Origin: Squalus acanthias
Lineage: Eukaryota
DNA: 64,000 nt
Assembly (NCBI GenBank): GCA_030390025.1
Contig: CM059432.1
Span: 82,958,001-83,022,000, forward strand
Direction: 5' to 3'
Position 1 is the stretch's first letter; each line of letters opens with the position of its first letter. A program made the translations under genes and the position numbers. Below the pieces are notes generated by a model. It searched no databases and was not told the origin of the DNA. It saw only the letters and a list, made by a program, of their open reading frames with translations. Below are positions 17,116 through 50,561 of the stretch, piece after piece.

Positions 17116-17847
17116 GGTGCAGAAATTCCGATCCCTACGGGTGTGTACGCGCTGTGTGCTCACCCGTAGGGACATCGGAAATGCCAGTTTCAGGCATGCA
17201 CTGGAAACCGGCATTTCCGATCTGTCAAGAAAGCTCTTGACAGATCCTCCGCCTGCCCGGGAGAAGGGCCTCTGCGGGAAGAGAGTTCCGCTTTTTGGAG
17301 ACCCTCCGCCCGCAGAAAACACTTACAATTCTTGCACCTGGTAAAAGCAGGTGTAAGGCCTGCTTTTACCAGGATAAGAGTTGAAAAAAGTTTTTTTTTA
17401 AATTTCCACTGATTTATTATTTAAAAATACTTTAAAGAAAGGTAAGTTTATTTTTAGCCCCGTTAAAAACTAATTTTTTTCAAAAAATAAAATTGTTTAA
17501 AATACTTAATTTATTGTAATTTAAAGTAATTTTAAAAATGTGATTTAAAAAAAAAATTTATTTAAAGTTTTACTATGTTTTGGGGGTGATCTCTTCATAT
17601 ATTTGACAGGTCTTCCTGTCAAATGTATGAAGGGAGATTCCCTTCTGATTGGCTCCCCATGGCCCACGTGATCCCAGGGACGCTGCGAACCGCCTGCGCC
17701 TCGGATACGTGGGCCCTGCACACCGGCAGTTTGGAAAGGCCCAGCAGCGGAACTCTGTGCCTTCCGGGAGCCCTCCGGTCTTGGCGCAGATTTTTCCAGA
17801 TCGCAGCCCTCCGCCCGCGGGAGCCCTGCGATCGGAATATCTGGGCC
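17116..17847. mobile_element. Hairpin-rich MITE, copy A (PIF/Harbinger-like termini)
   Basis: Imperfect TIRs ggtgcagaaattccg / cggaatatctgggcc, 3-bp TSD gac/gac, AT-rich core and multiple internal inverted repeats. Homologous to 20275 and 49823 in the opposite orientation. Confidence 0.8.
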
Positions 17848-18687
17848 GACATTGTTTAATTTTGTCTTTCGTTGTAGTAAAATACCAATTTCAATATGGT
17901 TTCCAGGAATGTTGCTTGTAATGCACAAGATGATTACAAAAGTGTATAACTGGAATAAGTAGCAATAAATTAAAAAAAAAAGTAAAATAAAGGTATATCT
18001 TCTGTATCGTGTACACAATTTCTCTTTTTAGTCAATACGGATTAACTTCTTGCATAAAGTGAAATCCCACCTGCTGATGGGGTGACGGAGAAATGGCGAC
18101 TTCCACTGCTGCAGCCTGAAGTAAGTTATATAGTTCGATTAGGTTACAATTAAAGCCTATGAATCTTTTAAGGGTCCGCTAGAACGTGATGCCGAGTGAC
18201 TCCACTCAAGTGGAATGAGTTATAGGTCTCATACTTGTGAAAAGACTACTACAACTAACTAGTGATGTATTTTTTTTTTTTAATATTAGGATATATTAAT
18301 GGCAACAACCCAAGCCATCACTGAATAAAGCAACTCCACACCCTCCCTCAGCCAAGACAGATAAATGAACGGCAGCCCTAAACACATGAACTTTAAAGCT
18401 TTCATCTATACTGCTGGGATTGTTTTGCCTAGCTCACACCTGTATGCACTTTCTCCATCTCTAATTATTTCAAAGTCATAATAACCAGCCCCAGAAATCA
18501 AATACACAGGTAAGTTGATCAAGACCAGTGAGTATGTCCATTAGGAACAAGACATCAGATATTGGGAACTGCAACCATTATGTTTTGGCCATCATAAATT
18601 GATTAGGAAGGTTGACCACAACACATCATCTGTATCTTACATTAATCATTTTAAAACTAGGTTCATTGTATGCAATAAGCAACTTAC

Positions 18688-18860
18688 CCTGCTCTTTTAT
18701 ATGACGGATTCGTTTCACAGTTTCTTTTAAGATTGCACATTTGTCTGGTTTTACGTTGAAGTTGTCAATGTCATTAAAATTAGCAAATATCAGCTCAGCA
18801 AGTTCTTCAATATATTTATTCTCTTGCTCACGATGACGTTTCTCAGTGCTACGTTTAGGG
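18688..18860 (-). CDS. NCOA2: NCOA2 bHLH-domain exon (173 nt)
   Basis: tttcaacag|CCCTAAACGT...GAGCAGG|gtaag. Encodes (S)[57 protein letters not shown], the p160 coactivator b[15 protein letters not shown] is NCOA2-type. Splices in frame to the phase-2 end of the 22693 exon (AG+C = Ser). Confidence 0.96.
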
Positions 18861-19264
18861 CTGTTGAAACACAAAAGCAGCAATGTTAAGTGCTAGGAAT
18901 ACATTTGGCATTTTTGCTCTCGGTTTATTTTATATGCAAGCAGTTAAACTGCTGGTCTTAGTGCAATTCCATCCAAAAATACAAGATTTAATGAAAGGGA
19001 TAGCTACATATTGTTCTCAGAGCAGACTAATATTTTACCCGATTTAAAGTAGCAAATAGGAATAAACTATTCCTATTTATTTGGTTTTCCAACATTAATG
19101 ATGTGATTTTCAGAACAGCAAAATAGTCAGAAACGGTTCTCCGAACGTCTGAAGCAGCAAACATTGCTTCAAATTTCCTTTCTCTGTGGCACAAGCAAAT
19201 CCAGCATTGGCCAAGAAAAATAAATCTTTTCTTTGGTCACCAAACTATTATAGGAAAGTGTAGT

Positions 19265-19870
19265 CAATTAGATCATGGCTGATACGTACCTCAACTCCAT
19301 TTACCCACCATTGATCCATATCCCTTGATGCCCTTACCCAATAAAAAGTTGTCGATCGCAGTCTTGAAAATTTCAACTGACTCAACAGCCACAGCCTTTC
19401 TTGGGAGAGAATTCCACATTTCCACTACACTGTGTGGAAAAAATGTTCCCGATTTCATTCCTGAATGGTCTAGCTTGAATTTTAAGATTGTACCCTATTG
19501 TTGTGGATTCCCCCACCAGAGGAAATAACTTCTCTGTATCGACTCTATTGAATCATTCTAACATTTTAACCACCTCAATTAGATCATCCTTCAACCTTCG
19601 AAACTCAAGGGAATACAACCCACCCACATTTATGCAGCCTGTCATAATTTAACCCTTTAAGCTCCATTATCATTCTGATGAATCTGCACTGCCCCCGATC
19701 AAAGGCCAATATATCCTTCCTGAAGTGCGGTACACAGAACTGAACACAATACTGCAGATCGAGTCTGACCAAGGCGCTGTACAACTGAAGCATAACTTCA
19801 TTCCCTTTGTATTCCAGCCCCATTGAGAAAAGGCCAACAATCCATTAGCCTTTTTGATTACCTTTGATAC
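19265..19870 (-). mobile_element. CR1 LINE 3' fragment
   Basis: ORF 19605-19823 LYSALVRLDLQYCVQFCVPHFRKDI. Confidence 0.8.
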
Positions 19871-19884
19871 ATGTGCATTTGCTG

Positions 19885-20203
19885 TAAACGGGTGTACACC
19901 TCTTCTAGACCTATCTTTTATTTATTAACTTGTCCCATTACCATCTCCTTTTGCTTTGTACCATCATACCTTTTGTCATTTAATCTCTCCTGCCTTCCAT
20001 CCTATCACAGACCTTCCCTTTTGTTCTTTCCTCCTTCCACGCCACCCACCCTTTCCCGGCCTCTGCACTTGCTTAAAACCTGATACATCTCTAACTTTTT
20101 CCAGTTCGGACGAAAGGTCATCGACCTGAAACATTAACTCGGTTTCTCTCTCCACAGATGTTGCCCGACCTGCTGAGCATTTCAAGCATTTTCTGTTTTT
20201 ATA
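19885..20203 (+). mobile_element. PLE family 2 pLTR-like element with degenerate hammerhead motif (20103-20139)
   Basis: AGTT-CGGACGA-A-AGGTC-ATC-GACCT-GAAA-CA-TT-AACT followed by tctctctccacagatg...gacctgctgag; same family as 35760 and 46632. Confidence 0.7.
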
Positions 20204-20274
20204 TCCTTTATCCTTGTGCTTCTAACCCATTTGTTTTATTTCTTATGCTACGTGCATTCATGCACATAACTAAT

Positions 20275-21005
20275 GGCCCTGAATTTCCGATCGGAGACTT
20301 CCTGCGGGCGACTGCCTCCGATTGGAAAAAATCTACGCACTTACCTGCTGGCTCTGTAGGTCCCGAGACTTCCGATCCTGGGCCTCTCCACTACGAAATG
20401 CGCAGAGGCCCAGGTATCCCAGGGGCGCAGGTGGTTCGCAAGCGCCTTGGGATCACGTGGGCCATGGGGAACCAAAGAAGGGAATCCCCCTTCACACTTT
20501 TGACAGGTCTCTACACACAGATCTGTCAAAAGTATCAATGGGGATCACATTTAAAAACAGTTAAACGTTAAATAGATGTTTTTTTAAAACCATCACGTAT
20601 TTAAAATTACATTAAAAAATATTTAAAACAAAAAATTGAAAAAAATAAAGTTTTTTTTTTTACAGGGCTAAAAATAAACTTACCTTTTTTTTTTAAGTAT
20701 TTTTAAATTATGAGTGAAAATCTTTTTATTTTTTTTTAAACTCTTATGCTGGTAAAAGCAGGCCTTACGCTTGCTTTTACCAGACGTAAGATTTTTAAAG
20801 GTTTTCAGCGGGCGGAAGTTATGCTGAAAGCGGAACTCTCTGCCCGCGGAGGCCCATCCCCCGGGCAGGTGGATGATCTGTCAAGTGGATTCTTGACAGA
20901 TCACAAGTGCTGGTTTTTAGCGCATGCCCTTTGCTTGCCTGAAACTGGTACTTGCGAGGCCCCTATGGGTGCGTACACACCCATGGGGGTCGGAAAATCC
21001 GGCTC
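20275..21005. mobile_element. Hairpin-rich MITE, copy B (inverted relative to A)
   Basis: TIRs ggccctgaatttccg / cggaaaatccggctc, TSD aat/att (one mismatch); same hairpins as A in reversed order. Confidence 0.8.
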
Positions 21006-21254
21006 ATTATCTCGGTAACTCTCCCCACCCTGTCCATTTGCCCCGATGGTGTATTTCTCTCACGTTTTGAGCGATCATACTTTTGGTTGCTGATGTATAG
21101 CAATGTGCAGAGCAAGCAATGTAATATGTTTTAATTTTTCATCACCCCTGCTTTATTTATGCAGCCATTTTACCCATTCTTCCTGGTTAAGTGCCGCCAT
21201 CGAAGGGCTTTTACAATTTAGAAAAAAGGGCATCTCAATTGCATAGCATGTTAA

Positions 21255-21500
21255 GTAAATGAGCCATTCATAACAGGAAGGTCTCAGGCTACTAAGTTAG
21301 TCGATTTCAGCAAGGGCTATATTTGGCTTCAGTCTACTTGGGGTCCGGAGGAGGTGGTAGTGGAGGAGTTACAAGGAAAAGAGAAAAGAAAATTAAACTG
21401 GGGTACCTGCGCCTGATTAGAATCCAGTGACCCTTGCTAGAAAAAAGTGTATATGTCGACATTGGGCAAGGACAGAATTAGACTGCAGGGTGTAAACAGG
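21255..21500 (+). mobile_element. Ancient SINE-like repeat fragment
   Basis: Shares agttag..gat.tcag and cctg..cctgat...atccagtgacc motifs with decayed fragments near 31310, 43600 (-), 58975 and 60950. Confidence 0.4.
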
Positions 21501-21599
21501 ATGAAGAAAAAAAGGTCAACTGGGGTGCCATCATGCATCTAAGATCCAGTTCCAGACCTTGGATCAGATCATATTCTCATTTTAAGGAGGCTTCAAGGG

Positions 21600-22447
21600 G
21601 AAGTGAGTGAGCAAGAACATGGCAAATGGAATATAATGTGGAGAAATGTGAAGTTATCCACTTTGGTAGGAAAAATAGAAAAGCAAAGTATTTTTTTAAA
21701 TGGTGAGAGATTGGGAAATGTTGGTGTTCAGAGGGACCTGGGTGTCCTTGTACACGAATCACTGAAAGTTAACATGCAGGTACAGCAAGCAATTCGGAAA
21801 GAAAATGCTATGTTGGCCTTTATTACAAGAGGATTTAAGTTTAAGAGTAAAGACGTCTTACTGCAATTATATAGGGCCCTGGTAAGACCACACCTGGAGT
21901 ATTGTATACAGTTTTGGTCTCCTTACCTAAGGAAGGATATACTTGCCATAGAGGGAGTGCAACAAAGGTTCACCAGACTGGTTCCTGGGATGGGGAGATT
22001 GTCCTATGAGGAAAGATGGAGTAGACTAGGCCTATATTCTCTAGAATTTAGAAGAATGAGAGGCTCTCATATGAAACATACAAAATTCTAACAGGGCTTG
22101 ACAGGGTAGATGCAGGGAGGATGTTTCCCTTGGCTGGGGAGTCTATAACCAGGTGTCACAGTCTCAGAATATGGGGTCACCCATTTAGGACTGAGAGGAG
22201 GAGAAATTTCTTCACTCAGAGGGTGGTGAATCTTTGGAATTCTCTACCCAAGGGCTGTGAAGGCTCAGTTGTTGAGTATATTCAAGACAGAGATCGATAG
22301 ATTTTTGAATATTAAGGGAATCAAGGGATATGGGGATAGTGCAGGAAAGTGGAGTTGAGGTAGAAGATCAGCCATGATCTTATTGAATGGCGGAGCAGAC
22401 TCAAAGGGCCAAATGGCCTACTCCTGCTCCGATTTCTTATGTTCTTT
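21600..22447 (+). mobile_element. 5'-truncated CR1 LINE
   Basis: ORF 21603-22091 (QRDLGVLV...RPHLEYCIQFWSPYLRKD) and 3' end ctcctgctccgatttcttatgttct. Confidence 0.9.
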
Positions 22448-22692
22448 TAGCTGCATACTGAATGGGGACTGAAAAGTGAAAAAATGATAGAAGAGAAAAA
22501 CAAAAAAGTTTCAGTGAAGTGAACATAACAGAAAACTACATGTTTACCAAATTATTACAAATGTAGCTTAAGAAAAGGAGCTATAAAAGATGAACTTGAT
22601 ATATTAATGTGACGTACCACCACCTTTTTAAAAAAAAGTAAAACATCGAACATACTCCAGAATTAATTAATTCCCTTAAATATGTATCTTAC

Positions 22693-22781
22693 CTCGGTCG
22701 TGGATGGTCACATGGCGATTCCTTACGTTTTCTCGAGTCTAATCTGGCAGGGTCAGAGGAATTTTCACCCATTCCACTCAT
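22693..22781 (-). CDS. NCOA2: Nuclear receptor coactivator 2, first coding exon (exon spans 22693-22800 including 19 nt of 5'UTR)
   Basis: Minus strand reads ...ttcaccag|CTGTTTATATGTCGGCAAG ATG AGT GGA ATG GGT GAA AAT...CGA CCG AG|gtaag = MSGMGENSSDPARLDSRKRKESPCDHPRP(S). This closely resembles the NCOA2 N-terminus as I recall it ([21 protein letters not shown]), including the RKRK NLS. Canonical AG/GT sites; 89 coding nt, ending phase 2. Confidence 0.93.
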
Positions 22782-22792
22782 CTTGCCGACAT
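22778..22792 (-). promoter_or_regulatory. 4-codon uORF (MSAR*) whose stop overlaps the NCOA2 start codon
   Basis: Minus strand ATG TCG GCA AGA TGA; the TGA shares TG with the main ATG (ATGA overlap). Lies within the exon. Confidence 0.6.
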
Positions 22793-24104
22793 ATAAACAG
22801 CTGGTGAAGTTAAGAGAGATGTTTCAATTAGCACTTTACAAAAAGCACTCAACTTTCTCAGTTAGAAGTATCTGATGCCTGGTAGTTTCTGTACAAGTTT
22901 TTATGATTACCTGCTTTGGCCTTAGTACTACTGCTAATTCAGATGGTAATGTAGACACGCTCTTAACCAAAGACAACTTCAATCATTCCAAGTATTGGAC
23001 AAAATATACATAAATTACGTATAGGGTCCCCATCCCCCGCCCCATGTCATTTAAGTACTGAAAACTTTGAACTGATTGTACTTCGAGAGCAAGAAACAAG
23101 CAGACTTGGATACTAAGTCACCGAAAAGAGCCAAAAAAACACCCAGCCTAGAATCAATCTCCAAGGAGAACATAAATCAAGGCCTGAAACAGCCCAGCTA
23201 ACGCAGAAAACCCAACAGTAAATGCACTGTTGCCAGTCATTATTCACATACAATTTCACTAATCACCTCTGCCCCAAGCAAAGATGGCCACATCTTGGTC
23301 AATATTTAGCTTTCAATATGAACACAGGATTGAAATAGTTCATTCCTTTATTACTGTTCAACAACCAATTTAAATCTTATTAAAATGGCTGTGATGCAAA
23401 AGTTTTTCCCCTTTCTAGATGAAGATTTCAAATTCCCTTGTGTCCAGTATGCCGAGAATGGATCCCCGAGAGCAATCTTCTTTGTGCTTTAAATTATTCA
23501 ACTTCTAAACTGTTCACTCATTTGAGGTTTCATATAGAAAAATTGAATATCAAATAAAGCCAGTATTAACAGTTAACCATCTTAAAACTGCAGGTTATTA
23601 TAAGCCAATATAGTTTAGCCAAAATTGCATTAATGTCATGCTATACTGCAGGCAACTAACTTTGCACTAAAACTTCATTGTGCTTTAACACTCATTATTA
23701 GCATAACTTTTCAAAGTAGAGAGTAAAATTACACTATGTAGAAATATGTACTTTGATATGCATGTTAATGCTGCAGGGAGGAAAAAAGCAGAGATTTACC
23801 ACATCACAAGACACAAAAAGTGAATTCTCTGCTTAACTGTACATCAATCCTGACCATGTTTCAATGGAAATTACCTTGGGTCAGGCAAAAAGCAATTGCT
23901 TTACAAGAAACATGGTCAAAAATAATGATCTAACTCAATGAGTAGAACAAAGTGATTTCAGGTAATTGATCAAAGTGATGTGATGACAGTTCTGATCACT
24001 GCACTGCATTCTCCATGTGACAGTTTGGACAGCAAGTGTTGGTAGGCTACTTGACCAAGGGAGGTTTCAAAGCGAAGCTCAACCACGTACTCACCTTCAC
24101 CCAA

Positions 24105-24380
24105 GTGTCAGCCATGGTTCGGTGGCAACGCTCTCGACCGAGCCAGAAGGTCTGTGTTCAAGTGACCCCCGCCCACCAAAGAATTCAGCAGTTGAGACTT
24201 AATCTCAGCCCACACTCCAGTGAAAGACTGAAGGACTGCTGCATTGTTGGAGGTGCCGACTTTCAGATGAGATGTTAAACCAAGGTTCCAACTGCACTCT
24301 CGGGATCATTAAAGATACGATGGTCGAAGAGCCAGAAGTTCTCCTGGTCAACATTTATCCTTCAAGCAACATCACTAACA
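24105..24380 (+). mobile_element. Degenerate Deu-SINE
   Basis: gtcagccatggttcggtggc head and gaggtgccgactttcagatgagatgttaaaccaagg Deu-like core. Confidence 0.6.
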
Positions 24381-25022: not shown

Positions 25023-26248
25023 ATAGATAAAGGGAGAACCAGTAGATGTGGTGTATTTGGACTTTCAAAAGGCTTTCGATAAGGTCCCGCATAAGAGATT
25101 AGCGTGTAAAGTTAAGGCACATGGGATTGGGGGCAAGGTATTGACTTGGATAGAGAACTGGTTGGCAGACAGAAAGCAGAGAGTAGGAATTAACGGATCT
25201 TTTTCCAAGTGGCAGGCAGTGACTAGTGGGGTACCGCAGGGATCGGTCCTTGGACCCCAGCTATTCACAATATATATAAATGATCTGGATAAGGCAACTA
25301 AATGTAATATCTCCAAGTTTGCAGATGACACAAAGCTGGGTGGGCGTGTGTGCTCCAAGGAGGATACCGAGAAACTCCAGGATGATTTGGACAGGTTGGG
25401 TGAGTGGGCAGAAGCGTGGCAGATGCAATATAACGTGGATAAATGCGAGGTTATCCACTTTGGTGACAAAAACAGAAAGGCAGACTATTATCTGAATGGC
25501 AATAGATTGGGAGAAGGGGAAGTGCAACGAGACCTGGGTGTCCTTGTGCACCAGTCGCTGAAGGTAAGCATGCAGGTGCAGCAGGCGGTGAAGGCGGCAA
25601 ATGGTATGTTGGCCTTCATAGCGAAAGGGTTTGAGTATAGGAACAGGGATGTCCTGCTGCAGTTGTACAGGGCCTTGGTGAGACCACACCTTGAGTACTG
25701 TGTGCAGTTTTGGTCGCCTTATCTGAGGAAGGATGTTCTTGCCATGGAAGGAGTTCAGCGAAGATTCACAAGGCTGATACCTGGGATGGCAGGAATGACA
25801 TATGAGGAGAGATTGGGTCGATTGGGCTTATACTCGCTGGAGTATAGAAGAATGAGAGGGGATCTCAGCGAAACATATAAAATTCTGACAGGTCTGGACA
25901 AACTAGATGCAGGATGAATGTTCCCGATGGTCGGAGAGTCCAGAACCAGGGGTCATGATCTAAGGATAAGGGGTAAGCCATTTAGGACAGAAATGAGGAA
26001 GAATTTCTTCACCCAGAGAGTGGTGAACCTGTGGAATTCTCTACCACAGAAGGTAGTTGAGGCCAAGTCATTAAATATATTCAAGAATGAGTTAGATATA
26101 TTTCTTAAAGCTAAAGGTATCAAGGGATATGGGGAGAAGGCAGGTACAGGGTACTGAGTTTGGATGATCAGCCATGATCTCATCGAATGGCGGAGCAGGC
26201 TCAAGGGGCCGAATGGCCTACTCCTGCTCCTATCTTCTATGTTTCTGT
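25023..26248 (+). mobile_element. Young 5'-truncated CR1 LINE (RT domain, single nonsense codon)
   Basis: ORFs 25048-25917 and 25918-26157 are in the same frame, split by one TGA; YLDFQKAFDKVPH, GVPQGSVLGP, FADDTK; tail tcttctatgtttctgtgt. Confidence 0.95.
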
Positions 26249-26401
26249 GTAAAGCAAACCCAAGGGTTACATCGAATTTACAGCACAGAAACAGGCCAAT
26301 CGGCCCAACAGGTCTATGCCGGTGTTTATGCTCCACACGAGCCTCCTCTCCCCTTACTGCATTTTACCCTATCAACATTTCCTTCTATTCCTTGCTCCTT
26401 C

Positions 26402-26645
26402 TTGATTGCCGTGATTATCTCTCTGCCGAGGTGTGATAAAGGGCAGTTGGAAAGATTAACTGTAATCATCTGGCTGTGTTCTCTGACTATATATGCTGTG
26501 CCGATATGTATCTCTTCACTTCACCTGACGAAGGAGCAGCGCTCCGAAAGCTTGTGATTTCAAATAAACCTGTTGGACTATAACCTGGTGTTGTGCGACT
26601 TCTCACATTTGTCCACCCCAGTCCAACACCGGCATCTCCACATCA
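26402..26645 (+). mobile_element. Penelope-like solo pLTR (family 1)
   Basis: Homologous to 27540-27798; ends ...ggcatctccacatca; TSD ttgctccttc / tttctccttc (26392-26401, 26646-26655). Confidence 0.8.
26521..26557 (+). ncRNA. Minimal type I hammerhead ribozyme motif
   Basis: TCAC-CTGACGA-A-GGAGC-AGC-GCTCC-GAAA-GC-TT-GTGA: intact CUGANGA and GAAA cores, 5-bp stem II, stem I TCAC/GTGA, palindromic AGCT mini stem III. Confidence 0.75.
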
Positions 26646-27086
26646 TTTCTCCTTCATGTACTTAGCTAGCTTCCACTTAAATGCATCTATGCTATTCACC
26701 TGAACTACTTCATGTGGTAGCGAGTTCCACATTCTCATCAATCTCTGGGTAAAGAAGTTTCTCCTGAATTCCCTATTGGATTTATTAGTGACTCTCTTAT
26801 ATTTATGGACCCCAGTTTTGGATTCCCCCACAAGTCTTCTCTGTTCTGGTATCATCCTTGTAAATCTTTTTTGCACCTTCTCCAGTGCTTCTATATCCTT
26901 TTTATAAAAACAACTGCGCACACCACTTTAAGTGTGGTCTAACCAAGGTTCTACATGTTTAACATTATTTCTCTGCTTTTGAATTCTGTTCCTATAGAAA
27001 TTAATCCCAGTGCTTTGTTTGCATTTTTTAGACAAAAATGAGAAGTCGCACAACACCAGGTTATAGTCCAACAGTTTTATTTGAAA

Positions 27087-27123
27087 TCATGAGCTTTCGG
27101 AGCGCTGCTCCTTCGTCAGGTAA
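27087..27123 (-). ncRNA. Minimal hammerhead ribozyme motif (sense to NCOA2 pre-mRNA)
   Basis: Reverse complement TTAC-CTGACGA-A-GGAGC-AGC-GCTCC-GAAA-GC-TC-ATGA; cores intact, stem I imperfect. Confidence 0.65.
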
Positions 27124-27673
27124 AGTGAAGGAATACAAATCAGCAAAGCATATATAGACAGAGAACAATGTGTAGCGTACAATGTCAGACGACTACAGTA
27201 AATCTTTCTGACTGCCCTCACACCTCGGCAGAGAGACAATCAGGCCAGTCAGGCAGGCATTACATCAAAGACACAGCAAAATACAGCTAAGACAATGAGG
27301 TGGGGTCACAGGGGGTCCAACGTGTCAAATGCTGCAGTCTGTATGGTTAAGCTTTTTACTTTTTTTAAAAACTGGAAATCACATCTGTGAACAAGCCAAC
27401 GACGACTCGAGTCTGGATGACTCTACGTCATGTAGCGTGACATGAAACCAAGATCCCGGTTGAGGCCGTCCTCATGGGTGCGATACTTGGCTATCAGTTT
27501 CTGCTCGATGATTTTGCTGTGTCTTTGACGTAATGCCTTCCTGACTGGCCTGATTGTATCTCTGCCGAGGTGTGATGGAGGGCAGTCAGAAAGATTTACT
27601 GTAGTCGTCTGACATTGTACGCTACACATTGTTCTCTGTCTATATATGCTTTGCTGATTTGTATTCCTTCACT

Positions 27674-27710
27674 TTACCTGACGAAGGAGCAGCGCTCCGA
27701 AAGCTCATGA
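27674..27710 (+). ncRNA. Minimal hammerhead ribozyme motif
   Basis: TTAC-CTGACGA-A-GGAGC-AGC-GCTCC-GAAA-GC-TC-ATGA, identical to the minus-strand copy. Confidence 0.65.
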
Positions 27711-28876
27711 TTTCAAATAAAACTGTTGGACTATAACCTGGTGTTGTGCGACTTCTCATTTTTGTCCACCCCAGTCCAACACCGGCATCTCCGCATCATG
27801 CATTTTTTAGGCTTTGTTAACATGTGTTGCTACTTTTAATGATTTGTGAATCTGTACCCCTAGATCCCTTTGCGCCTCTATCGCATTTAGACTCTTATTT
27901 TCCAAGGAGTAGGTCGCCTCCTTATTCCTTCTATCTAATTGCACCACCTCAGACTTATCTATATTGAAGTTAATTTGCAATTTACACGCCCATTCAGCAA
28001 GTTTGTTTTAAGTCTTGTGTTTTGTGTTGTTGTGGCTTTTAATATTGCCTCCTGATCTTAATGATTCTCCGCCTTCAACTGTATTGATTTGACTTGTATG
28101 GATACCCAAGTAAGCCAGGTTATTTCAAGTGCAAGCTAGCAGGTCAAATGTATATAATATGGTTATCAAGAGCTTTTTTCAAGCCTCTCCTGGTTCTACT
28201 AGGGAAATAAGTTTTGAGAAAGTGTGTTCCATGGATAAGAAAGGGAAACACAAGGGATCACGGTCATCTCCCAGATCCCCAGTTAAAGCTCGTAGATCCA
28301 TGTGGTAGGTGTTCTCCCGTGCAGAACTAATATCCATTTCAGAACACTGATTTTTGTTTGTTTCTGTACTTTTTGTTAGAATCAGATCTTTTGTACAGAC
28401 TTGGTCGGTGCACATTGCTGATTTCAGAAAATCTTTTGAATCCAAAAGACAGAACCACGATATCGAAGACAGACAGGTCAGGTTTTTGTACCATGTGGCC
28501 ATTGAAGAATCTTCTTACAGTTGTCTGTAGACATTGCCAATCTTAGAAATAGTTTCTGAAAATCAGCTTCTAGTTCAGGTTATTGCTGTTAATAGCACTG
28601 TATCAAACTTTTTGATGTGTACTTTAAACATGGTGGACCACCTTTTTACCCAGATTTTCAAAATTGTTATGAATGAAGCCAGAGATCCCATGTCAGTAAT
28701 GCTGCAAAATGTAGTGGTGTTGCACTGATGCTTTTGAATCATAGCAAGTCACAAATTTAACAGTAAGGATTCAACAATAGAATACTGAACAATACCATGT
28801 GGTGTTGGTTTATTCTGATATGTTGGCTTTTTCCAGAGTTGTTTTTGATCAAGTTTATTATTGACATACTAGTGTT

Positions 28877-29178: not shown

Positions 29179-30229
29179 GCCAGATGGGCTGGAATTCTAT
29201 TTCTGAGAGACTACTTTATGTTGAAAGTACTTCCATTAATAATGAATTGGTGTGCAGCTGATATTTGTAATGTAACTTTTAACAAATGACTGAAAAACTG
29301 TCAAACTTACTCATTACTAATTTAGAGTTGGGGTGAAGCTTGGACATTACTCTGAAGCTTTCTAAATGTTGATCACAGACACCTTGCAAACAAAAGCTAG
29401 CAAAAATATAAACTGGACATTACAAAGTATAAGTCTGAAAGAAATTGAATGTAACAGGAGAAAAATGCTGACAAGGAACAGAGAGTAACAAAGTAAACGT
29501 ATGGGGAGAGAAAGACAGTACAGGAAGTAGAAAGGAGTGTACACACCGAGTTAATGACTATCTCGGTTTTAATTCATCGCTCTCATTGATGGGTATGTCC
29601 TTTAAGCTAGACTTCTGAGAAAAGCATTGAAAAGTAATTTGAAATGTTTTCAATTGTTTGATTTACAAAAATGACTGAATGATGAAAGTGCTCCCTTTAA
29701 TTTTATGAAAATTTCCTATAATCAAAATATTTCCCATATATTACAAGACTTCATTGCTATTCTACTGTCTCTACTTTTTTGATTTGTGGGGGTTCTTCAC
29801 GTTGCTGCTTCTGCAACGGTGCTCATCAAGTAGGAAAGGATGTGAAGGAGGATGTGTTGTCAGAACGAAAGTAAAAAACACTATTTTAACATTGATATGA
29901 GAAAGCATTGGTGTCAACACAATCCACAAGACTTCTCAAAAGAGTTAACTCTTTAAGGACCACATTTTTGCACCACAACAAAGAACATTTTTATGCAAAG
30001 TACGGAGACTATTAATATGATCTATAGCCCCTTAATGTCACTAGTCACAGATAGTGCTAGTTCTGTACACAGGCATTTGGTGCTGCTGCCTAGCTTGCTG
30101 CCCGGTCCTTCCTATGTATGTGTAACAAATATATGTGCATACACACACAGTAATATTCACACAGACCCACTGTGTCCTCCCACTTTGAAAAATTTTCAAT
30201 CCATCTTTGTTCACTCCCACCAATACCAT

Positions 30230-30405
30230 GGGGACAAATCTCCACAGACCTTCTCCCACTCGCCTGCCATAACTTTGGCGGAAGAGCCGTAGAAACCCCA
30301 GAAACATGGCGTAAATGGCACTTTAGTCATTTTGCCGGGGTTTCTGCGGCTTTTCCAGTGAAGTTATGATGGGCGAGTAGAAGAAACCCCACTGAAATTC
30401 ACCCC
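30230..30405. mobile_element. Short palindromic MITE
   Basis: ggggacaaatc / aaattcacccc ends; arms actcgcctgccataactttggcggaagagccgtagaaacccc / ggggtttctgcggcttttccagtgaagttatgatgggcgagt. Confidence 0.75.
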
Positions 30406-30511
30406 ATTGTCTGCTGATTGCGTGTACTGGTTTTCTTTGAGCTACCTTATTAATGATCTTACTAAGATCCAAGTATATTACATCTACATTCGCTCAAATA
30501 GCCACCTAGAG

Positions 30512-30770
30512 TAGAGATGTCCAAAATTTTGTAGTTGGGTACTGGATACATGTGACAGTGAGTGGGCTACATAGAATTACTCACAAATGTGAAATCCCCA
30601 AAAGTTAGAGCCCCCTTTTCCAATTCTTCAGGTCTAGGATCTATAAAGCTACTGAAGTTGGGTTTGAACACAAGTGCAGAGGACAGGAACTGGTAGGAGC
30701 TCCATGGGCCAGATCAAAAGGAGCTTTCAAGCCACATTTGGCCCTGCAGGTCGCTTCTTGGACACCTCTG
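30512..30770. mobile_element. Non-autonomous hAT (Charlie-like) DNA transposon
   Basis: TIRs tagagatgtccaa / ttggacacctctg and 8-bp TSD acctagag / acctaaag (30504-30511, 30771-30778). Confidence 0.8.
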
Positions 30771-32258: not shown

Positions 32259-32601
32259 CAATATTTAATATAAGATTTAATATATAGATTTGTTTACTTT
32301 TTAAAGAGTCCACCTACCTCCCCACCACCCCCCCCCCACCCCACCCCCCCACCCCCAACGCATTAACAATTTGGTTAAAAATAAAGTCACAGGCCATATC
32401 TCTGTGGATAAGGCAGAGCTATTGTTTTCTAAAATGTCAGTTGAAATCCAAGGCCAGGTACCAATATTTCATTGAAGTGTAGAAACCTGGTCAACTTGAA
32501 AATCAGGTGAAAGAAAGGTAAACATTGCCCTCAAAAGCTTGACCCTGGAAAAGAAACTGGCAGGGATTGTGTAGGTGTTTAGGTTCTCAAAGCTCTATCC
32601 A

Positions 32602-33071
32602 AGAAAGAAGACTTGCATTTATATAGCGCCTTTCACAACCACCAGACATCCCAAAGCGCTTTACAGCCAATAAAGTACTTTTTGACGTGTAGTCACTGTT
32701 GTAATGTAGGAAACGCGGCAGCTAATTTGCACACAGCAAGCTCCCACAAACAGCAATGTGATAGGGACCAGATAATCTGTTTTAAGTGCTGTTGATTGAG
32801 GGATAAATATTGGCCTGGACACCGGGGTTAACTCCCCTGCGCTTCTTCGAAATAGTGCCACGGGATCTTTTATGTCCACCTGAGGGCAGACGGGGCCACG
32901 GTTTAACATCTCATCCAAAAGACGGCACCTCTGATAGTGCAGCACTCCCTCAGCACTGCACTGGAGTGTCAGCCTAGATTTCTGTGCTCGGCACAAGTCT
33001 GTGGAGTGGGACTTGAACCCACAAACTTCTGACTCAGGCGAGGGTGCTACCAACTGAGCCACGGCTGACAC
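32602..33071 (-). mobile_element. Full-length Deu-domain SINE (SacSINE1-like)
   Basis: Minus strand: gtggctcagttggtagc (A box), gggttcaagtccc (B box), Deu core taaaccgtggcccc...taaaagatcccgtggcact, L2-like tail. Confidence 0.88.
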
Positions 33072-35757: not shown

Positions 35758-35759
35758 TC

Positions 35760-35840: not shown

Positions 35841-35841
35841 A

Positions 35842-42770: not shown

Positions 42771-45700
42771 TGCATTGGTAACATTCAAGTAAACCACTAA
42801 AGAAAAGTACTTACATTTTCTACGCATCACCTAAGTTAATCACCACATATATACCATCTCCTACAGTTAAGGGAGAAATAATTCCCATTGACAGCATCTC
42901 TGTTGGCATTAATGTTATTTCCCTGATCCTCTTGAGCTTGCAAAACAAACTGATTTATCCTCTGGACATCTCTACATAGTCAATTCTGACCTTTCAGCAG
43001 CCCATCAGAAGGCCCCAATAGATCCCCATCTGAGCAAGAGATAAGCTCCCTGTAACAAACTAGGATCTTTGTGAACAAGTTTCATTTATGAGATTCAGAG
43101 AACTGTGATCCACTAAACTGAATACATGCAGATCCATAGGTGGGAGCACAATTATTTCACTTTGCTTGCAGCAAGTCAACTGCATCAAACTGTAGATTTA
43201 TTCTTAGGCTGAGCAACAAAAGAGTTAATAGTAAATAGAAATAGGGTAGCAAACAAAGCACAACCAGATTTTCCTAACTTTCCTCCACTACACTGTTACT
43301 TTTGCCTCCCCTCTCTTCTCCTGAGCCCAACCACTCAAATGAAAATAAAGTTCCACAGGGAGATGGAGGAAAGGGGTCAGCCAGGATACTGGGCAGTGAC
43401 CTCTGCTGCAGAATGTGTATCTAGGTGCCACGGTGAAGATAGCTCAACTATGATGAGCCCCACAGTTGACAATCTGTTGACGCACACTGTCCAGGCACAC
43501 ACAGAAACTAAGAAGAATTTCAACTGTGGACCATCATACTTGAACCCTACCCTATCCTTACTTCAGCACCTAACACACTTTTCCAGCAAAAGTCGCTGCC
43601 CAGTGATCAGGAGCAGGAATTCTTGCTGATTTCTTTTTACCCTTTCCCAGCACAGGAACCGTGAGGCCAACTGTACCATCAACCCTGGCTAAGATACACC
43701 AACTCAGAATCTACTATGGAATAAGTCTGTCCTGTCTGGATGACTCAATGAGACACTGATGCGTACTACTATAAGTACTATACTCTTTATTAATCATAAA
43801 ATGAACGTGCTTATTACAATACTCATGACATGAGCATGAAAAAATAAAAACAAGTCACCTGGAAGGTTTTAAAGAAAACACTAACTTTACTGGTGTCAAT
43901 GCTTCTTTAAAGGGAACTAAGTTTTAATAAGCGAGGACGAAAATAAACAATCTAAATGAATTCAGCCTAAGTAGATGAACACTGCCAGGATGAAACAGCT
44001 AAATAGTGTTCTAGATTTACTTCACAACCCAAAAGTTGTTTAGATTTTTCTCGAGTACGGTGAGCTGCTCTCAACAGAATTCTTCAGCGTCAACTTCTTG
44101 CTAAATGGTTTTACTTTTAGAGATGAAATGATTTAGTTTCTCTTCATAGATGAATATATTAACAGGCCTCCATTTCGGTAGATCCTGTGAATTTCTCAAA
44201 CACTGCATACAGTGTTGGTCAATGTTAATATTGATCATGCAGTGTTATGCAGTTCTTTTGAAAACTATTACAACCTGCTTTTGCTTGCCAATACAAATCA
44301 AGTGATTACAGAAGGAGATTCAAGTATCAAACTCAGATACATAAATTGTGTGACTTATGACCCTAAAACTATTGTGCAAATTTTTGGTGCAACATCAGAT
44401 TTTACAGCAATCTGAAAACAAAATCCTCTATAGCAGTGTTGTCCGATACACGTGGAACGTTGTATGCATGTGTACGTCAATGTTTTTGTGGGTTTGTTGG
44501 TAAAATAGGAAGACGAAAAGCATAATGTGCAAGTGTTTTTTGATCGTTGTGAATGTTTACCACTTTAAGTGAGAGTCTCATGATGAAATCAATTCAGACA
44601 TTTGCCAGCAGCTGTTTCCAAAACTTCCAATGCATTTTCCACACAAAGGCTGCTGCATCCCTTCCTTTCGTACTAACTTATGTTTAAAAAGCACAATGTC
44701 CAACCTGCATATCCAGCTTTTAAAAACCATATAAAACTACTTTATCCCAATAACTGCAACCAGTATTAACAGGACAGCCTATTACATCCACACATGCATT
44801 CAAATATTTAGTCCTCATTATGGCACCATCGCCTTCACAAAAAAAGCGTCACCAATAGTGCACAGGGGAAGAGGAAGAAATCACAATTAAAAGCCTGATT
44901 CACACTTTGGGCTCTGAGTTCTCCAAGTACAAAGTACAAAGTTCAGATTTCAATTTCTTCAACATTCTGTGGTGCAGCTTCTGGATTTTGAACCTCCCCA
45001 GTGCCCTGAGGTTTCAATCGCCTCAACTGTCAATTCACATCACAGATTCGGAAAAGGCACAGGACTGAAAAACATTCCAAGATATAAAATTCAAATGAAT
45101 TTCTTTGCAACTACTTCAGAGTTCACCCAAAGAGCAAAAAATACCAGGAGTTGAGAGACCTACTCTCATTCAGTTGAGCAATTTCCTAAAATTTGCAAAC
45201 AACATTCTGTATCCATTATTTTCCAAAGAGGGGTAGAAGGCAAACACTACATTTCCCGTGATTACTAGAAATATAATAAATAAGCAAATCTGGTTGTCCA
45301 AAAAAAAGCCCAGTTATGCATATAGAAGCAGCAAAAAAATCTCAGTTTGCATACAATTTTGTACAATTCAACAATTCAGCAGTTGTACATTTTTTTTTAA
45401 ATGACATAATTTGACATTTAAACTTCCTTTTTTACAAAGAATTGCAACACTATTACTGACGAATGAGATTCGCAATATTCTATTTGGAAAATCTATTTCA
45501 AATGTAGTTGGAAAGCTTCCAATTAAGCTGGAAAAGTTTCCTTTTACTATCTATTGTATGATGTTATTCAGATTGGACCAGATGAAGTTTACTCAGAAGC
45601 AATCTTTTTGGCTCAAGTGTCATCATGATAAATTACAAGCAACACTTGGCTCTAACAGGTTAAGTTTCAACTTATTTTGAAGAGGGGAATGGGACATGGT

Positions 45701-46097
45701 GAATTTTGTACTCATGGGACCTACAGACAGCATCAGGCACTCCGAGGTCAGGTTTAGAAGCGAAGAGCAGAAGATAGCTCTCTGTGCACTGCTGCAACAA
45801 TGTGCTTGATCGCCAATCTCAAAATGTCCTCTGTATCACAACTATTTTTTCCATCTCCTATGGTGGCCATCCTTCTGGCTCAAGCAACATTGTCAACTTG
45901 ACACCACTTAGCACCAGTGAATTGTAGACAGTTCAACACTGTGGACTCATGTCTATTCAGACCATTAGAGCCTAGAGAGAGGAGACTTTCATTCCTTCAT
46001 TTTGAGATGGAATAAAACCCAAGTCACAGATAACAAAATATTATCCTACCACCCCCTCAATAAATGACATAAAAAAATAGCTGACATAATCAGTACA

Positions 46098-46156
46098 TGA
46101 TGCGGAGATGCCGGTGTTGGACTGGGGTGGACAACCTGGTGTTGTGCGACCTCTCA
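46098..46156. mobile_element. 59-bp PLE family 1 micro-insertion with internal inversion
   Basis: Perfect 12-bp TSD ataatcagtaca (46086-46097, 46157-46168). The insert is the last ~37 nt of the pLTR on minus joined to the preceding ~24 nt on plus. Confidence 0.85.
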
Positions 46157-46631
46157 ATAATCAGTACAGCCAGACATAACAGGTAGATACCAACAGCACA
46201 GGAAGAGTGTGTGTTCAGGTGTACCAACAGGCAAGTTATAGATCTGGCATGGCTTATGTGTACTCAAGCAACACTGGTTCAGCAAGTCATGATCAAGTCT
46301 GCATTAGGTCAGAGTTCGAGACAACACTGTCTGTCACAGAATTCCATGGGCAGCAGAGTCACCAGTGGTATTTTGCACAAATTTCTTAGTGATACTGAAG
46401 CTCAATTTCCTGAAATAAACACAAAGGTTTAGATTAAACATAGCAATTTTTTGTAGCGCTGCTATAGTTAAAACCATGTTACCTGGCTACATCTCTTCAG
46501 TGTTGGAAAGTGGGAAATACTGGCACAGTTTAGTCTAATTTTATCCACTAGTTTGTATGATTTTCAACTGCACTGACCCAAGAACAAGGGATAAGGTTTC
46601 TCTGCAGCTTTCCAGCAGGGCTACAATATTC

Positions 46632-46763
46632 TGATAAACAGTCATCGACCTGAAACGTTAACTCTGTTTCTCTCTCCACAGATGCTGCCTGACCTGCTGA
46701 GTATTTCCAGCATGTTCTGCTTTTATTTCAGATTTCCAACGTCCACAGTATTTTGCTTTTGTT
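46632..46763 (+). mobile_element. PLE family 2 short insertion with degenerate hammerhead motif
   Basis: CTGATAA..GTC-ATC-GACCT-GAAA-CG-TT-AACT; TSD caatattc (46624-46631, 46764-46771). Confidence 0.7.
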
Positions 46764-46939
46764 CAATATTCCATTAACCGACAGATATTGACTTTATAGA
46801 ACATCAATGTGATGATTGAAAAGTAAGACTGCTGTACTGGTGCCAATTGTTGGAAAAATGTGGCTACTTCCTCTCGGCTTAAGCGTCTTCCAGCAGCCTT
46901 CAATTCTCTTCCCTCACCTTCCCCCCCTCCCCAACTGGT

Positions 46940-47190
46940 CTCCATCTCATCAGCATCTTACCTTGATCTCTCCTTCTCCCCTCCAACCTCTAACCCGGCT
47001 CTACCTTCCTCAAACCCCCCCTCCCACCTGGCCTCTAACCCTGATCTACCTTAATCCTCCCCATCCAGTGTCTATCCCTCTTGTATCTTCCTCTCCTCAG
47101 TCTCTAACACTTCTTTATCTTCCCTCACTCTCGGCCTCTAACCCTGCTCTACCTTCTCCCTTCCCATCTCTAAACCTACATTAATTCCAC
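46940..47190 (+). repeat. Degenerate pyrimidine-rich minisatellite
   Basis: Recurring cctctaaccc(t/g)g.tctacctt units at about 46987, 47032, 47101, 47135 and 47168. Confidence 0.5.
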
Positions 47191-47930
47191 CCCCCGCCCC
47201 CCCAAACTCGCTTTTCCTGCCTTCCAGCATCACAGTTCTAAAATTGACTTGGGTCCAGTTATGCCCTGCAATCTAACACCACTTACTTGAAGACTCCACC
47301 TGTTCTGGACTCCCCTTGTGCAATGCCACAAGAGACTGACTATTAATATATTAAAAATCTTACATCTACATGCACTTCCTGTCAACTGTTTACATTTTAA
47401 ATGAATATGTCCACATTTCTAATGGAAGATGTCTGGGTAAACTGGACATGCTGTGCCTACACCCTGGTGGTACTGCAGCACCTCAGTTTTGCATCACCCA
47501 AATCCTCCGCTTATGCAGCAGAAAAACTACGATGCTCCAACCAACTATTTCTCTTCTTCCCAAATTGCTGCAAATTTTGCTGTTTAACTATAAATAATGC
47601 AAAATCTCTAAGTATTATATAAAAAATAAGAGCAGAATGTATAACTGGCAACTGAATTATGTTGGCGTACCTTGGCCCAATGATCCCCACCCTCTAATCC
47701 TAATTCACCTGAAGAATGCACTTGATCAACTAGTATTTTCCAGAAAAGGTGATAAAACAAACCTCAGAGTACAGACCCTACTAGTCTTACATCAATAACT
47801 GACAATAAAATTGGTAACTAGGAATAAACTTGAGGATTACCGATCTTTTGGGTTTTGCAGGTGATAGAAAGTCAGTAGGGGGAAAAAATCATACCCTAAA
47901 ACAATGTAAATTCAGAGAAAAATCCATCAT

Positions 47931-48497
47931 AGAAAAACGTCCCAAGTCATTTCATAGAGGCGTAATTGGGCAAAATGGACGCGGGCCAAAGTATTAGGAT
48001 AGCTGTAAAAGCTTGGTCAAAAAGATGGATTTTAAGGAGGACCTTCAAGGAGGAGAGGCAGGTGGAGGGGTTTAGGGAGTGAATTTCAGAGCATGGTAGC
48101 TAAGTGGCTGAAGGCACAGCTACCAATGGTGGAGTGAAGGGAGGGAGGGATGCACAAGAGACCAGAATTGAAAGAATGGAGAGTTTGAGGGTGGGGGTAG
48201 GAGGAGAGGCAGTGGGGTTGGTTGTAGGTTACAGAGATGGGGTGGGTAGAGGCCATGAAGGGATTTAAACATGAGGGTAAGAATTTTAAATTGGAGCACC
48301 ATGGCTTTATTCATCCATGGAGTCTCATTAGTGTTGAGTTTGTTATTTCCTTTTAGCGGAATATATTGTTCCTGCATTCTGTTGAATGGAAAATTATATT
48401 TGGGTTACGGGTTACATGAAGGTAGGTGGGGAGGGGATTGGGCTTGGAGGCCACATTTTTGTCCTGTTAGTGGAGGGTTCAGGGAGGGATTGGGTTC
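47931..48497 (-). repeat. Left arm of a local inverted duplication
   Basis: 47931-48300 is the reverse complement of about 52545-52907, and 48301-48497 of about 50957-51145. Confidence 0.85.
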
Positions 48498-49822
48498 AAA
48501 GCAGCTCAATCAATTTTTCAGTAGGGGAATCCAACTGATGCACCTTGTGAATTGTGCACAATGCACACGCTCATACTGTGCCATCTACCCCTTCAGCTGA
48601 CAGTGATCACTCTGGGGAAATATATCAAGACCAGGTCAGGCTGTTGAGAGATGCTAAGGCCTTCAAATTAAAAAGTGTTAATGAAGCTACTGATAAACAC
48701 AAATTATTTCATAGGTAAGCTTAATTATGTTACTGTGAAATACATGATTGTTATGCATTATGCTAGGAACCTTATTTTGAGATGGTATCGGGGAGGGGGT
48801 GCGCACGCAGGAAATGGTGGACAAAAATGTTGTTAATTTTTTTTATAAATGTATTTGGTTGGTTCCTCCTGACTGGTTAGTCAGGATTGGTTGTTTTTGT
48901 AAATCTTTAGGAATTTCTCATAGTTTTACAGCCAGTTTTTTGATTTGTACATTAATTACCTTATTTGTTACATGCAATTGTGTCAGAAAATAGTAAGTGT
49001 AATGATTTTATAATAGATACATTGGCATAGGTGCGTATAGTGGTTTGCAAGCTATAAAGATCAGTATGTTTAGTCCAGATGTAACTCAATGCTTAGATCA
49101 TCTGACCACATTAAGCCAATTTTGTTATCTTTTGTCCAGTTTGCAAGTTGTGGAACAGTGAAGCAGTGGGCAGTCAACCACTGGGAACAAACCGCTAAAG
49201 AAAATGGGCATAAAACTGACTGCTGATTCAGACACCCACTAGTTTATTAGGGATTGATACTGGTGTTGGCCATTGAACAAGTCAATGGTCCAAACTATTT
49301 AATCCACATGGATGAGGGAATAATTGCAGCTGTAGATGGCAATGGTATGAGAACATAAACAGTGAAGAAATGGAATACATGTAATTTTGCCCCACCACCC
49401 TCTTTTGAAAGTTTGAGTATAAAGTGGAATATCACTGTTTAAAATCCCAAGATAATTTGACCACCAGTTGAATCAGAAATTTTGAATCTGAAATATTAAC
49501 CTGTCTTTCGCTTTCAGGTGCTTGCTTGATCTGTACTTTTCCCACTATTTTATGGATTATCTCATTTTAGTTTTTCTTCTGGCCCATTTCTGGTTTTGTG
49601 ATCGATTATACTATATGATCTCTGACTCAAATTTTGCAGGCTCAAGTACAGATGAGGGAAGCCATCTGGAAACCTATGGTTGTAGCATCATAACATCCAC
49701 TTATTCCAGCTTTTGCCTCTACTGTCCTCGATGGAAAACCATTTCCAACATGAATCATTCTTTGTGGTCCTTCAGCTTTAACCTCCTTTTACTCTAGGAT
49801 CATCCTTGACATCAAAGATAAT

Positions 49823-50561
49823 GGCCTGGAAATTGCGGTCGGAGGCTTGCAGCCTGCATACGCCTCCGAACCGCAAGAAAACTCCGTACTTATGATAGCT
49901 CCGGACTCTTGCGGTCGTGGGCCTGCAGGCATAAACCTGCATAAAGGCCCACGCATCCCAGGGGCGCATGCGGTTCGCAAGTGTTCCAGGGATCACGTGG
50001 GCCAGGCCAACCAATGACAAGGGGGGTTCCTAGTATACTTATGGGAATTCCATTTACGTACAGAATCCCCATGAGCATAATAAAAATCACCTAATAGATA
50101 AAATTTCACAACACAAATAAAAATAAATAATTAAAAGTTCAAAATGAATTAAAATACCATTTAATTAAACATTTAAAATAAAAATTCAATTTTTTGAAAA
50201 AATAAATGTAAACACTTACCTGGGACAAAATTGACCTAATCTAATTTTAAATGTAAGTGAATGTTTAAATCATTTTTTAAAAATGTTAGCATTTATTTAA
50301 ACCCTTACGCTGGTAAAAGGCCCTACGCTTGCTTTTACCAGGCCTAAGGGTTTGGTGGGTAATCACTGGGCAGTAGTTGGGCAAATAGTCCAAATCTGCG
50401 CCAGCAAAAGTGAATTTACAGCGGAGGGGTACGACCTGTCATGGAGAAACTTGACAGATCGCAAGTTCCGGGTTTTCACGCATGCACATCGCATGTGGAA
50501 ACCCGGAACTTGAAGCATTTATGACAGCGTACGCCGTCATAGGCCCTGGAAAATCTGGGCC
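49823..50561. mobile_element. Hairpin-rich MITE, copy C
   Basis: TIRs ggcctggaaattgc / ggaaaatctgggcc, perfect TSD aat/aat; colinear with copy B. Confidence 0.8.

What the first reader, a model, noticed from the sequence alone, without database searches (positions are those of the whole stretch)
17116..50561. MITE family built from an ordered array of hairpins whose stems change sequence but keep pairing
Seen: three ~735-bp copies (17116-17847, 20275-21005, 49823-50561) with short GGCC-type TIRs and 3-bp TSDs share at least 6 internal hairpins in the same order around an AT-rich core. Some stems are nearly invariant (gatctgtcaag/cttgacagatc; ctggtaaaagcag/ctgcttttaccag). Others are replaced at the same position: ccctacgggtg/cacccgtaggg in A versus tatgac/gtcata in C; tttgacagg/cctgtcaaa in A versus ttatgggaattc/gaatccccatgag in C; gatcgcag/ctgcgatc in A versus tcggaggc/gcctccga in C. 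Inference: secondary structure (cruciform, ssDNA or RNA) or dyad protein-binding sites matter to the element, which is more than a plain cut-and-paste MITE needs. The family may be undescribed; I cannot check that here.
Basis: partly seen in the sequence, partly recalled or inferred. Interest (0 to 1): 0.7.

Follow-up and report, generated by a model that had tools for sequence, protein, structure and literature searches.

The report
Harbinger-like MITE with covarying hairpin array
A very abundant non-coding jumping element in a shark-like genome carries about ten internal hairpins whose base pairing was kept while the family diversified, though inserted copies lose it, which suggests that the fold-back shape of the DNA helps the element spread; no function has been shown.

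Summary
Confirmed. Three 731-739-bp copies (A +, B -, C -; 59-76% alike) have GG-type terminal repeats, 3-bp target duplications and about ten hairpins in one order around an AT-rich core. Of 105 local pairs, 22 change on both sides (shuffles 7.8 +/- 2.2; slid controls 4 or fewer). The changes cluster in three stems; three others are nearly invariant. Public runs show a very abundant family (26,674 contigs in one run). Common family letters restore 7 of copy A's 11 mismatched pairs, so inserted copies decay while amplifying lineages stayed paired. There is no RNA signal: no Rfam match, G.T:A.C mismatches 6:7, half of the strict double changes are transversions. Ends and target motif fit Harbinger-like (PHIS) elements; the TWA duplication of PIF/Harbinger proper is not met, and no autonomous partner could be sought. 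Best reading (0.45): a non-autonomous Harbinger-like element selected, while mobile, both for invariant dyad protein sites and for DNA fold-back shape, with arm-to-arm template switching supplying paired changes. Main rival (0.25): templated repair tied to transposition, with no selection on shape. Internal palindromes are known in a frog Harbinger MITE; I found no report of covariation.

The parts
17116..17847 (+). Copy A, full-length element (reference orientation)
20275..21005 (-). Copy B, full length, 75.5% identical to A; TSD AAT 20272-20274 / ATT 21006-21008
49823..50561 (-). Copy C, full length, diverged subfamily (58.6% to A); TSD AAT 49820-49822 / AAT 50562-50564
17113..17115 (+). Left TSD of A (GAC); the right copy is at 17848-17850
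17116..17135 (+). Left TIR of A (16 of the first 20 bases match the right TIR at 17828-17847)
17132..17172 (+). H1: covarying stem (6 of 12 pairs change on both sides, 2 of them through G.T); conserved GTACG centre; A has an 11-nt insertion in the loop
17174..17221 (+). H2: covarying stem (5 of 14); conserved GCATGC centre at 17194-17199 (NRF1-type core; label recalled)
   Evidence: table 7, 69
17219..17246 (+). H3: invariant dyad GATCTGTCAAG/CTTGACAGATC (0 of 11 double changes, 9 never vary); variable loop
17271..17316 (+). H4: GC-rich stem; two of A's mismatches are restored by common family letters; alignment to C is unreliable
17326..17383 (+). H5: invariant core CTGGTAAAAGCA dyad (17337-17373) with conserved GTAAG loop; 2 double changes in the outer extension
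17384..17580 (.). AT-rich core (approximate bounds), with a donor-like GGTAAG; no reliable conserved pairing
17590..17635 (+). H6: most strongly covarying stem (8 of 19); TTGACAG in A and B is replaced in C while pairing is kept; variable loop
17648..17670 (-). E-box CACGTG followed 12 nt (A) or 11 nt (C) later by CCAAT on the minus strand of A; CCAAT is mutated in B
   Evidence: spacing of 10-12 bp described in PMC4889920
17661..17715 (+). H7: invariant stem GGCCCACGT/ACGTGGGCC with inner GCG-AAC-CGC hairpin (0 of 17 double changes); can exchange arms with a neighbouring H8 in B and C
17754..17790 (+). H9: stem variable between copies; not included in the pair count
17799..17833 (+). H10: subterminal stem overlapping the right TIR; 1 of 8 double changes; A's two C.C mismatches are restored by family letters (51% and 99% in run X1)
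54016..54669 (.). Element D: same TIR type and AT-rich core, flanks GCT/ATT, one long hairpin; homology to A-C not shown

Best explanation
A high-copy non-autonomous Harbinger-like (PHIS superfamily) DNA transposon, moved in trans by a DDE transposase and its Myb/SANT partner. Its interior is a cis-acting module under selection only while a lineage is amplifying. Invariant dyads and hairpin centres (H3, H5 core, H7; GTACG, GCATGC, GTAAG, E-box plus CCAAT) act as double-stranded protein sites. The covarying arms (H1, H2, H6) are kept for DNA fold-back shape (hairpin or cruciform potential), most plausibly keeping the ends accessible or helping the transposition complex assemble. Paired changes probably arise in one step by arm-to-arm template switching. 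Shown: anatomy, covariation, decay in an inserted copy, target motif. Inferred: the partner proteins, which factors bind, selection on shape, and the benefit.
For: 22 of 105 pairs change on both sides, 0 of 500 shuffles reach it, slid controls 0-4. All six directed comparisons show excess Watson-Crick doubles (P 2e-5 to 4e-3). Common family letters fall on 8 of A's 11 mismatched pairs and restore 7, against 4 of 134 intact pairs hit (P 2e-8). So copies decay by single breaks (9 transitions, 2 transversions), whereas lineages differ by doubles. H6 stays paired in C although its TTGACAG is gone, so a fixed sequence site cannot explain it. Different stems have different sequences, so one dimeric protein cannot explain them all. 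No strand bias (G.T 6, A.C 7) and 7 of 14 strict doubles are transversions: this fits DNA and one-step copying better than RNA drifting through G.U pairs. Target flanks match the palindromic Harbinger motif at 13 of 16 positions (P 5e-4). Internal regions modulate mPing mobility, with nucleosome occupancy proposed (PMC9921582). Template switching can make compensatory changes in one event (PMC8794818).
Against: Only three full sequences: the structure was derived from them, no phylogeny-aware test (R-scape) was possible, and the tool warns that related sequences can beat its shuffles. Read variants are unlinked, and only 40 of 126 rows were shown. Four listed variants break a pair of A with no partner change shown, and one (17600) does not restore its pair. 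The transition test depends on the baseline: with the background share (0.39-0.48) one-step and two-step routes cannot be told apart. A strand bias in the active lineage could be hidden by decay. No autonomous partner, binding, cruciform or mobility data. Nothing here separates selection on shape from templated repair tied to transposition.
Confidence: 0.45

Rival explanations
1. Mutational upkeep only. The dyad cores are selected as protein sites, but arm symmetry is a by-product: each round of excision and gap repair copies the element through a single-stranded intermediate that folds back and overwrites one arm from the other.
For: Doubles are clustered (H1 columns 33-37, H6 columns 527-536) and half are transversions. 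Template switching creates and repairs stems in one step and leaves loops intact. It would act on amplifying lineages and not on dead copies, as seen.
Against: About ten hairpins keep their order, and the total length stays 731-739 bp, across about 40% divergence; repair through hairpins would be expected to delete them as well (established knowledge, not tested here). A rate of correction matching point mutation would be needed.
Confidence: 0.25
2. All stems are dyad sites in duplex DNA for dimeric proteins whose specificity changed between subfamilies (for example a fast-evolving Myb-like partner), so both half-sites changed together.
For: Harbinger Myb-like proteins bind element ends and diverge fast (passages). 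Motifs recur within copies: GTAAG 3-4, TGACAG 3-4, GGCCCA 4 per copy, against 0.86, 0.38 and 0.26 per 730 bp elsewhere (palindromes count twice).
Against: The covarying stems share no common sequence. TGACAG is kept in H3 of C but lost from H6 of C, which one change of specificity does not predict.
Confidence: 0.13
3. The element is transcribed and the RNA fold is what is selected (a scaffold or guide RNA, a small-RNA precursor, or an RNA that evades silencing).
For: Promoter-like motifs near the ends, CpG observed/expected 0.81-0.87 against 0.33 for the window, and an H5 loop that can read as a C-GNRA-G tetraloop on one strand (by inspection).
Against: No Rfam match at gathering score in the window, and one chance-level hit at E 0.27. 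G.T:A.C 6:7. The better-folding RNA strand differs between copies. No excess of transition doubles. A cut-and-paste element needs no RNA to move.
Confidence: 0.12

Closest known systems
Harbinger-N12A_XT of Xenopus tropicalis (PMC12676858; passages and section 5 read, its Supplementary Figure S1 not seen)
   Same: Vertebrate non-autonomous Harbinger MITE with TIRs, internal palindromic repeats and enriched NRF-type sites; thousands of copies.
   Different: 342 bp against about 735 bp. No covariation or ordered hairpin array is mentioned in the parts read. No sequence comparison was possible.
Harbinger3_DR / Harbinger3N_DR of zebrafish (Sinzelle et al. 2008; not held, seen only as cited in PMC3016246, PMC2836001, PMC9392472)
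   Same: 3-bp duplication inside a palindromic target; a Myb-like protein binds the element's ends.
   Different: Its duplication is CWG; here GAC, AAT and AAT/ATT. By recall only, its Myb-like protein binds short subterminal palindromes like the H1 centre; I could not verify this.
mPing and Tourist-like MITEs (PMC9921582: abstract and discussion read; PMC2836001: passages)
   Same: Non-autonomous PIF/Harbinger elements whose internal sequence affects mobility.
   Different: The mPing effects were tied to GC content and nucleosomes, with no shared internal motif and no hairpin covariation in the parts read.
Pangu group of the PHIS superfamily (PMC4482050; passages and section 4 part 1 read)
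   Same: ANT duplication and TIRs of 11-40 bp starting AG or GG fit B and C.
   Different: A's GAC does not fit; no vertebrate is in the paper's list of Pangu hosts; group assignment needs the transposase.
Structured prokaryotic MITEs with covarying hairpins
   Same: The same pattern: pairing kept while stem sequence changes.
   Different: Bacterial or archaeal, one or two hairpins, unrelated ends.

Membership tests
Non-autonomous PHIS (Harbinger-like) DNA transposon / MITE | Short TIRs starting with G or GG | tested here: met
   9-11 of the first 14 bases match; 4 of 6 ends begin GGCC
Non-autonomous PHIS (Harbinger-like) DNA transposon / MITE | 3-bp target site duplication | tested here: met
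   Exact in 2 of 3 copies, one mismatch in B; no empty site seen
Non-autonomous PHIS (Harbinger-like) DNA transposon / MITE | Palindromic target preference around the duplication | tested here: met
Non-autonomous PHIS (Harbinger-like) DNA transposon / MITE | No coding capacity; high copy number | tested here: met
   The 2 open frames of 120 aa or more that overlap A and B have no Pfam match, and none overlaps C; 26,674 and 27,143 contigs laid in two runs
Non-autonomous PHIS (Harbinger-like) DNA transposon / MITE | Autonomous partner with the same ends, coding a DDE transposase and a Myb/SANT protein | not testable with these tools
   No genome held; earlier notes report Harbinger elements in this genome, unchecked for these ends
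PIF/Harbinger group in the strict sense (Han et al. 2015) | TWA duplication | tested here: not met
   0 of 3 copies
NuwaI group (PHIS) | CWG duplication | tested here: not met
   0 of 3 copies
Pangu group (PHIS) | ANT duplication | tested here: inconclusive
   Fits B and C, not A
Known structured RNA family | Match to an Rfam model | tested here: not met
Structured RNA (any) | One-strand bias towards G.U pairs and transition-type compensation | tested here: inconclusive
   G.T 6, A.C 7; 7 of 14 doubles are transitions; small numbers, decayed copies
An already catalogued Repbase or Dfam family | Sequence match to a consensus | not testable with these tools
   No such library is offered

The most novel reading that the evidence does not exclude
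The hairpin array with its AT-rich core is a structure-based amplification module. It extrudes as cruciforms or folds as single-stranded DNA during mobilisation or gap repair and is read by shape, giving this MITE a copy-number advantage (up to a partly replicative route). That would make the old question of how MITEs outnumber their autonomous partners testable by stem-break and rescue mutants.
Probability: 0.15. Interest if true: 0.8.

Novelty: new variant of a known kind. Interest (0 to 1): 0.5.

Why it matters
Cut-and-paste elements are thought to be read as duplex sequence at their ends. A eukaryotic MITE whose internal stems keep pairing through many double changes in amplifying lineages, and lose it after insertion, points either to selection on DNA shape in transposition or to a strong templated mutation process tied to it. 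Either is testable, and this very abundant family offers material for a proper covariation study. It is also a caution that covariation in a repeat need not mean a functional RNA.

Tried and rejected
No whole genome is held, so no subfamily consensuses, empty sites or partner search. Collection scans gave chance matches only: 51 viral loci (best BLAST hits 18-32 bases), 8 metagenome loci (1 weak 35-base hit), 0 in bacterial and archaeal genomes. No RNA holder was listed on record. Run X17, RNA only by guess, gave 715 contigs over the whole element, without strand information, so it says nothing on expression. Run X22 did not hold the element (3 reads laid). No joint skipping the whole element was among the 15 of 127 joints shown. 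Element D looked homologous by eye (hairpin near one end, CTTAC loop, CCAAT), but a profile of A-C scores it at E 2.7-4.4, as the reversed control does (E 2.7-5.8), and the H2 alignment was unstable; I therefore left D out of the pair counts. One search had H7 off by one and three helices extended with the variant table in view; one search corrects both and is the count used. H4, H8, H9, the TIR stem and the AT-rich core were left out because alignment or pairing was ambiguous. An RNA fold, and a Helitron-type element (which has no TIR plus 3-bp TSD; recalled), were considered and ranked low. The primary Harbinger3_DR paper is not held, and a search for its recalled binding motif found only unrelated papers. 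Look-ups of earlier notes by sequence found nothing.
Full report
Setting. The window is intergenic or intronic DNA full of LINE fragments (reverse transcriptase and endonuclease frames). Earlier notes call the genome shark-like (unchecked, but consistent with the repeats). No whole genome is held.

The observation. A (17116-17847, +), B (20275-21005, -) and C (49823-50561, -) align from end to end at 75.5% (A-B), 63.2% (B-C) and 58.6% (A-C) identity. Target duplications are GAC/GAC, AAT/ATT and AAT/AAT. TIRs match at 11, 10 and 9 of the first 14 bases. The copies fold far better than shuffles (z -16.6, -13.9, -14.0). In a local-folding control they score -8.4 to -11.0, and 13 other stretches of the window score +0.4 to -5.8. 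11 of the 12 perfect stems of 10 bp or more in the window lie in these copies. About ten hairpins (H1-H10) keep their order, five on each side of an AT-rich core.

Covariation. On the sequence-only alignment, 8 local helices (105 pairs) show 22 pairs changed on both sides; shuffles give 7.8 +/- 2.2 (0 of 500 reach 22), and slid partners give 0-4. The structure came from these same three sequences, so I also took stems from one copy and scored them in another: all six directions show excess Watson-Crick doubles (10-28 per comparison, P 2e-5 to 4e-3 under a generous null). A strict set (predicted in both copies, on both strands) holds 14 doubles. The doubles are uneven: H1 6 of 12, H2 5 of 14, H6 8 of 19, against H3 0 of 11, H5 2 of 24 (both in the outer extension), H7 0 of 17 and H10 1 of 8. 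There are thus two kinds of stem, sequence-invariant and shape-only. Several centres are conserved (GTACG 5 of 6 columns, GTAAG loop 5 of 7, AAC 3 of 3); loops overall are not (24 of 70 columns, against 121 of 177 in stems and 126 of 254 elsewhere).

The family at large. Copy A is held by runs of at least seven coded organisms, two of them only at small shares. Laid at 80% likeness, runs X1 and X3 gave 26,674 and 27,143 contigs. In X1 the summed depth is 8-15 on the flanks and 8e4-1.3e6 inside, and contigs carry both junctions of A almost exactly. The tool says this is no copy number; it shows a very abundant family. Of 126 listed letter differences 40 were shown, and I used the 39 inside the element. 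They hit 8 of the 11 mismatched pairs in A's own stems and restore 7, but only 4 of 134 intact pairs (P 2e-8). So A descends from a better-paired source and has decayed by single, uncorrected changes; one-sided breaks in the three copies are mostly transitions (9 of 11). Against this, those 4 variants break a pair with no partner change shown, and 17600 T>G does not pair with A's partner, although one X3 contig shows the matching C there (table 5c; unlinked). Inference: doubles accumulate in amplifying lineages and singles in dead copies, so background conversion acting on all copies is a poor explanation.

RNA or DNA. Rfam gives nothing. Mismatches show no strand bias (G.T 6, A.C 7), the better RNA strand differs between copies, and half the strict doubles are transversions. 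A two-step route is rejected if the single-break spectrum is used (P 1e-8), but not if the background spectrum (0.39-0.48 transitions) is used, so this is weak evidence. No run on record as RNA was listed.

Motifs. An E-box lies 12 (A) or 11 (C) bases before CCAAT, which is mutated in B; a preferred E-box to CCAAT distance of 10-12 bp is described for USF and NF-Y (PMC4889920, passages; measured somewhat differently). The H2 centre GCATGC extends to GCGCATGCGC in one contig end (table 7), the NRF1 site by recall. CpG observed/expected is 0.81-0.87 against 0.33 for the window. These suggest promoter remnants or host-factor sites; binding is untested.

What it is. The TWA duplication that defines PIF/Harbinger proper, and the CWG of NuwaI, are not met; the ANT of Pangu fits two of three copies (PMC4482050). 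I file it at superfamily level only, and the partner is unknown. A fourth element, D (54016-54669), has the same TIR type but no significant internal homology.

How it most likely works. A transposase and Myb-like partner act in trans (known for the superfamily; passages). Invariant dyads and centres are protein sites; the covarying arms are kept for fold-back shape; template switching supplies paired changes (PMC8794818, abstract and discussion). H6 is the key case: C has lost the TTGACAG of A and B but kept the stem. I give this 0.45; templated repair tied to transposition without selection on shape 0.25; co-evolving dimer sites 0.13; RNA 0.12.

Novelty. PIF-Harbinger is listed for the whale shark (PMC8455134, passages) and reported absent from elephant shark (PMC9179366, passages). 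Internal palindromes and NRF-type sites are described in Harbinger-N12A_XT (its supplementary figure, which may bear on this, was not seen), and internal sequence affects mPing mobility. Five searches bearing on this family or architecture listed no paper on it by title or abstract start; most listed papers were not opened, and Repbase and Dfam could not be searched, so the family may be catalogued. Earlier notes record the same pattern in prokaryotic MITEs and a Harbinger-type MITE with splice signals in this genome, which may be this family; I could not check that. Verdict: real, a new variant of a known kind, function unproven; interest 0.5.

Noticed in passing
window 54016-54669: Fourth Harbinger-like MITE with the same TIR type (12 of 14 bases match), an AT-rich core, a 13-bp stem near 54558-54620 and a decayed NRF1-like centre; homology to A-C not significant.
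   Followed up: partly
window 26397-26646, 27031-27282, 27511-27799, 46096-46134: A repeat family with a hammerhead-like motif (CTGACGA...GAAA) by eye, probably Penelope-type ends; Rfam found nothing at E up to 1 in 26350-27850.
   Followed up: partly
window 55107-56972 (-): Open frame of 621 aa with a reverse transcriptase domain (E 7e-35), a CR1-like LINE piece; related pieces at 25027-26252, 21601-22445 and 5581-6372.
   Followed up: partly
window 9420-12419 (-): Decayed LINE with endonuclease- and RT-like frames in pieces (RT match E 2e-7, below the curated cut-off margin of strong hits); may be the tRNA-headed LINE of earlier notes, not checked.
   Followed up: no
window 1915-2347, 32601-33068, 58464-58907: SINE-sized family of about 440-470 bp, 71-83% alike, without unusual folding.
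   Followed up: no
   Followed up: no
window 17661-17745: The GGCCCA word of the TIR recurs four times per copy; the middle arm can pair either with H7 or with H8, and in B it matches only H8.
   Followed up: partly
window 25400-26130 and 30000-30730: Two control stretches folded better than shuffles (z -5.8 and -3.6, 12 shuffles each); cause not examined.
   Followed up: no
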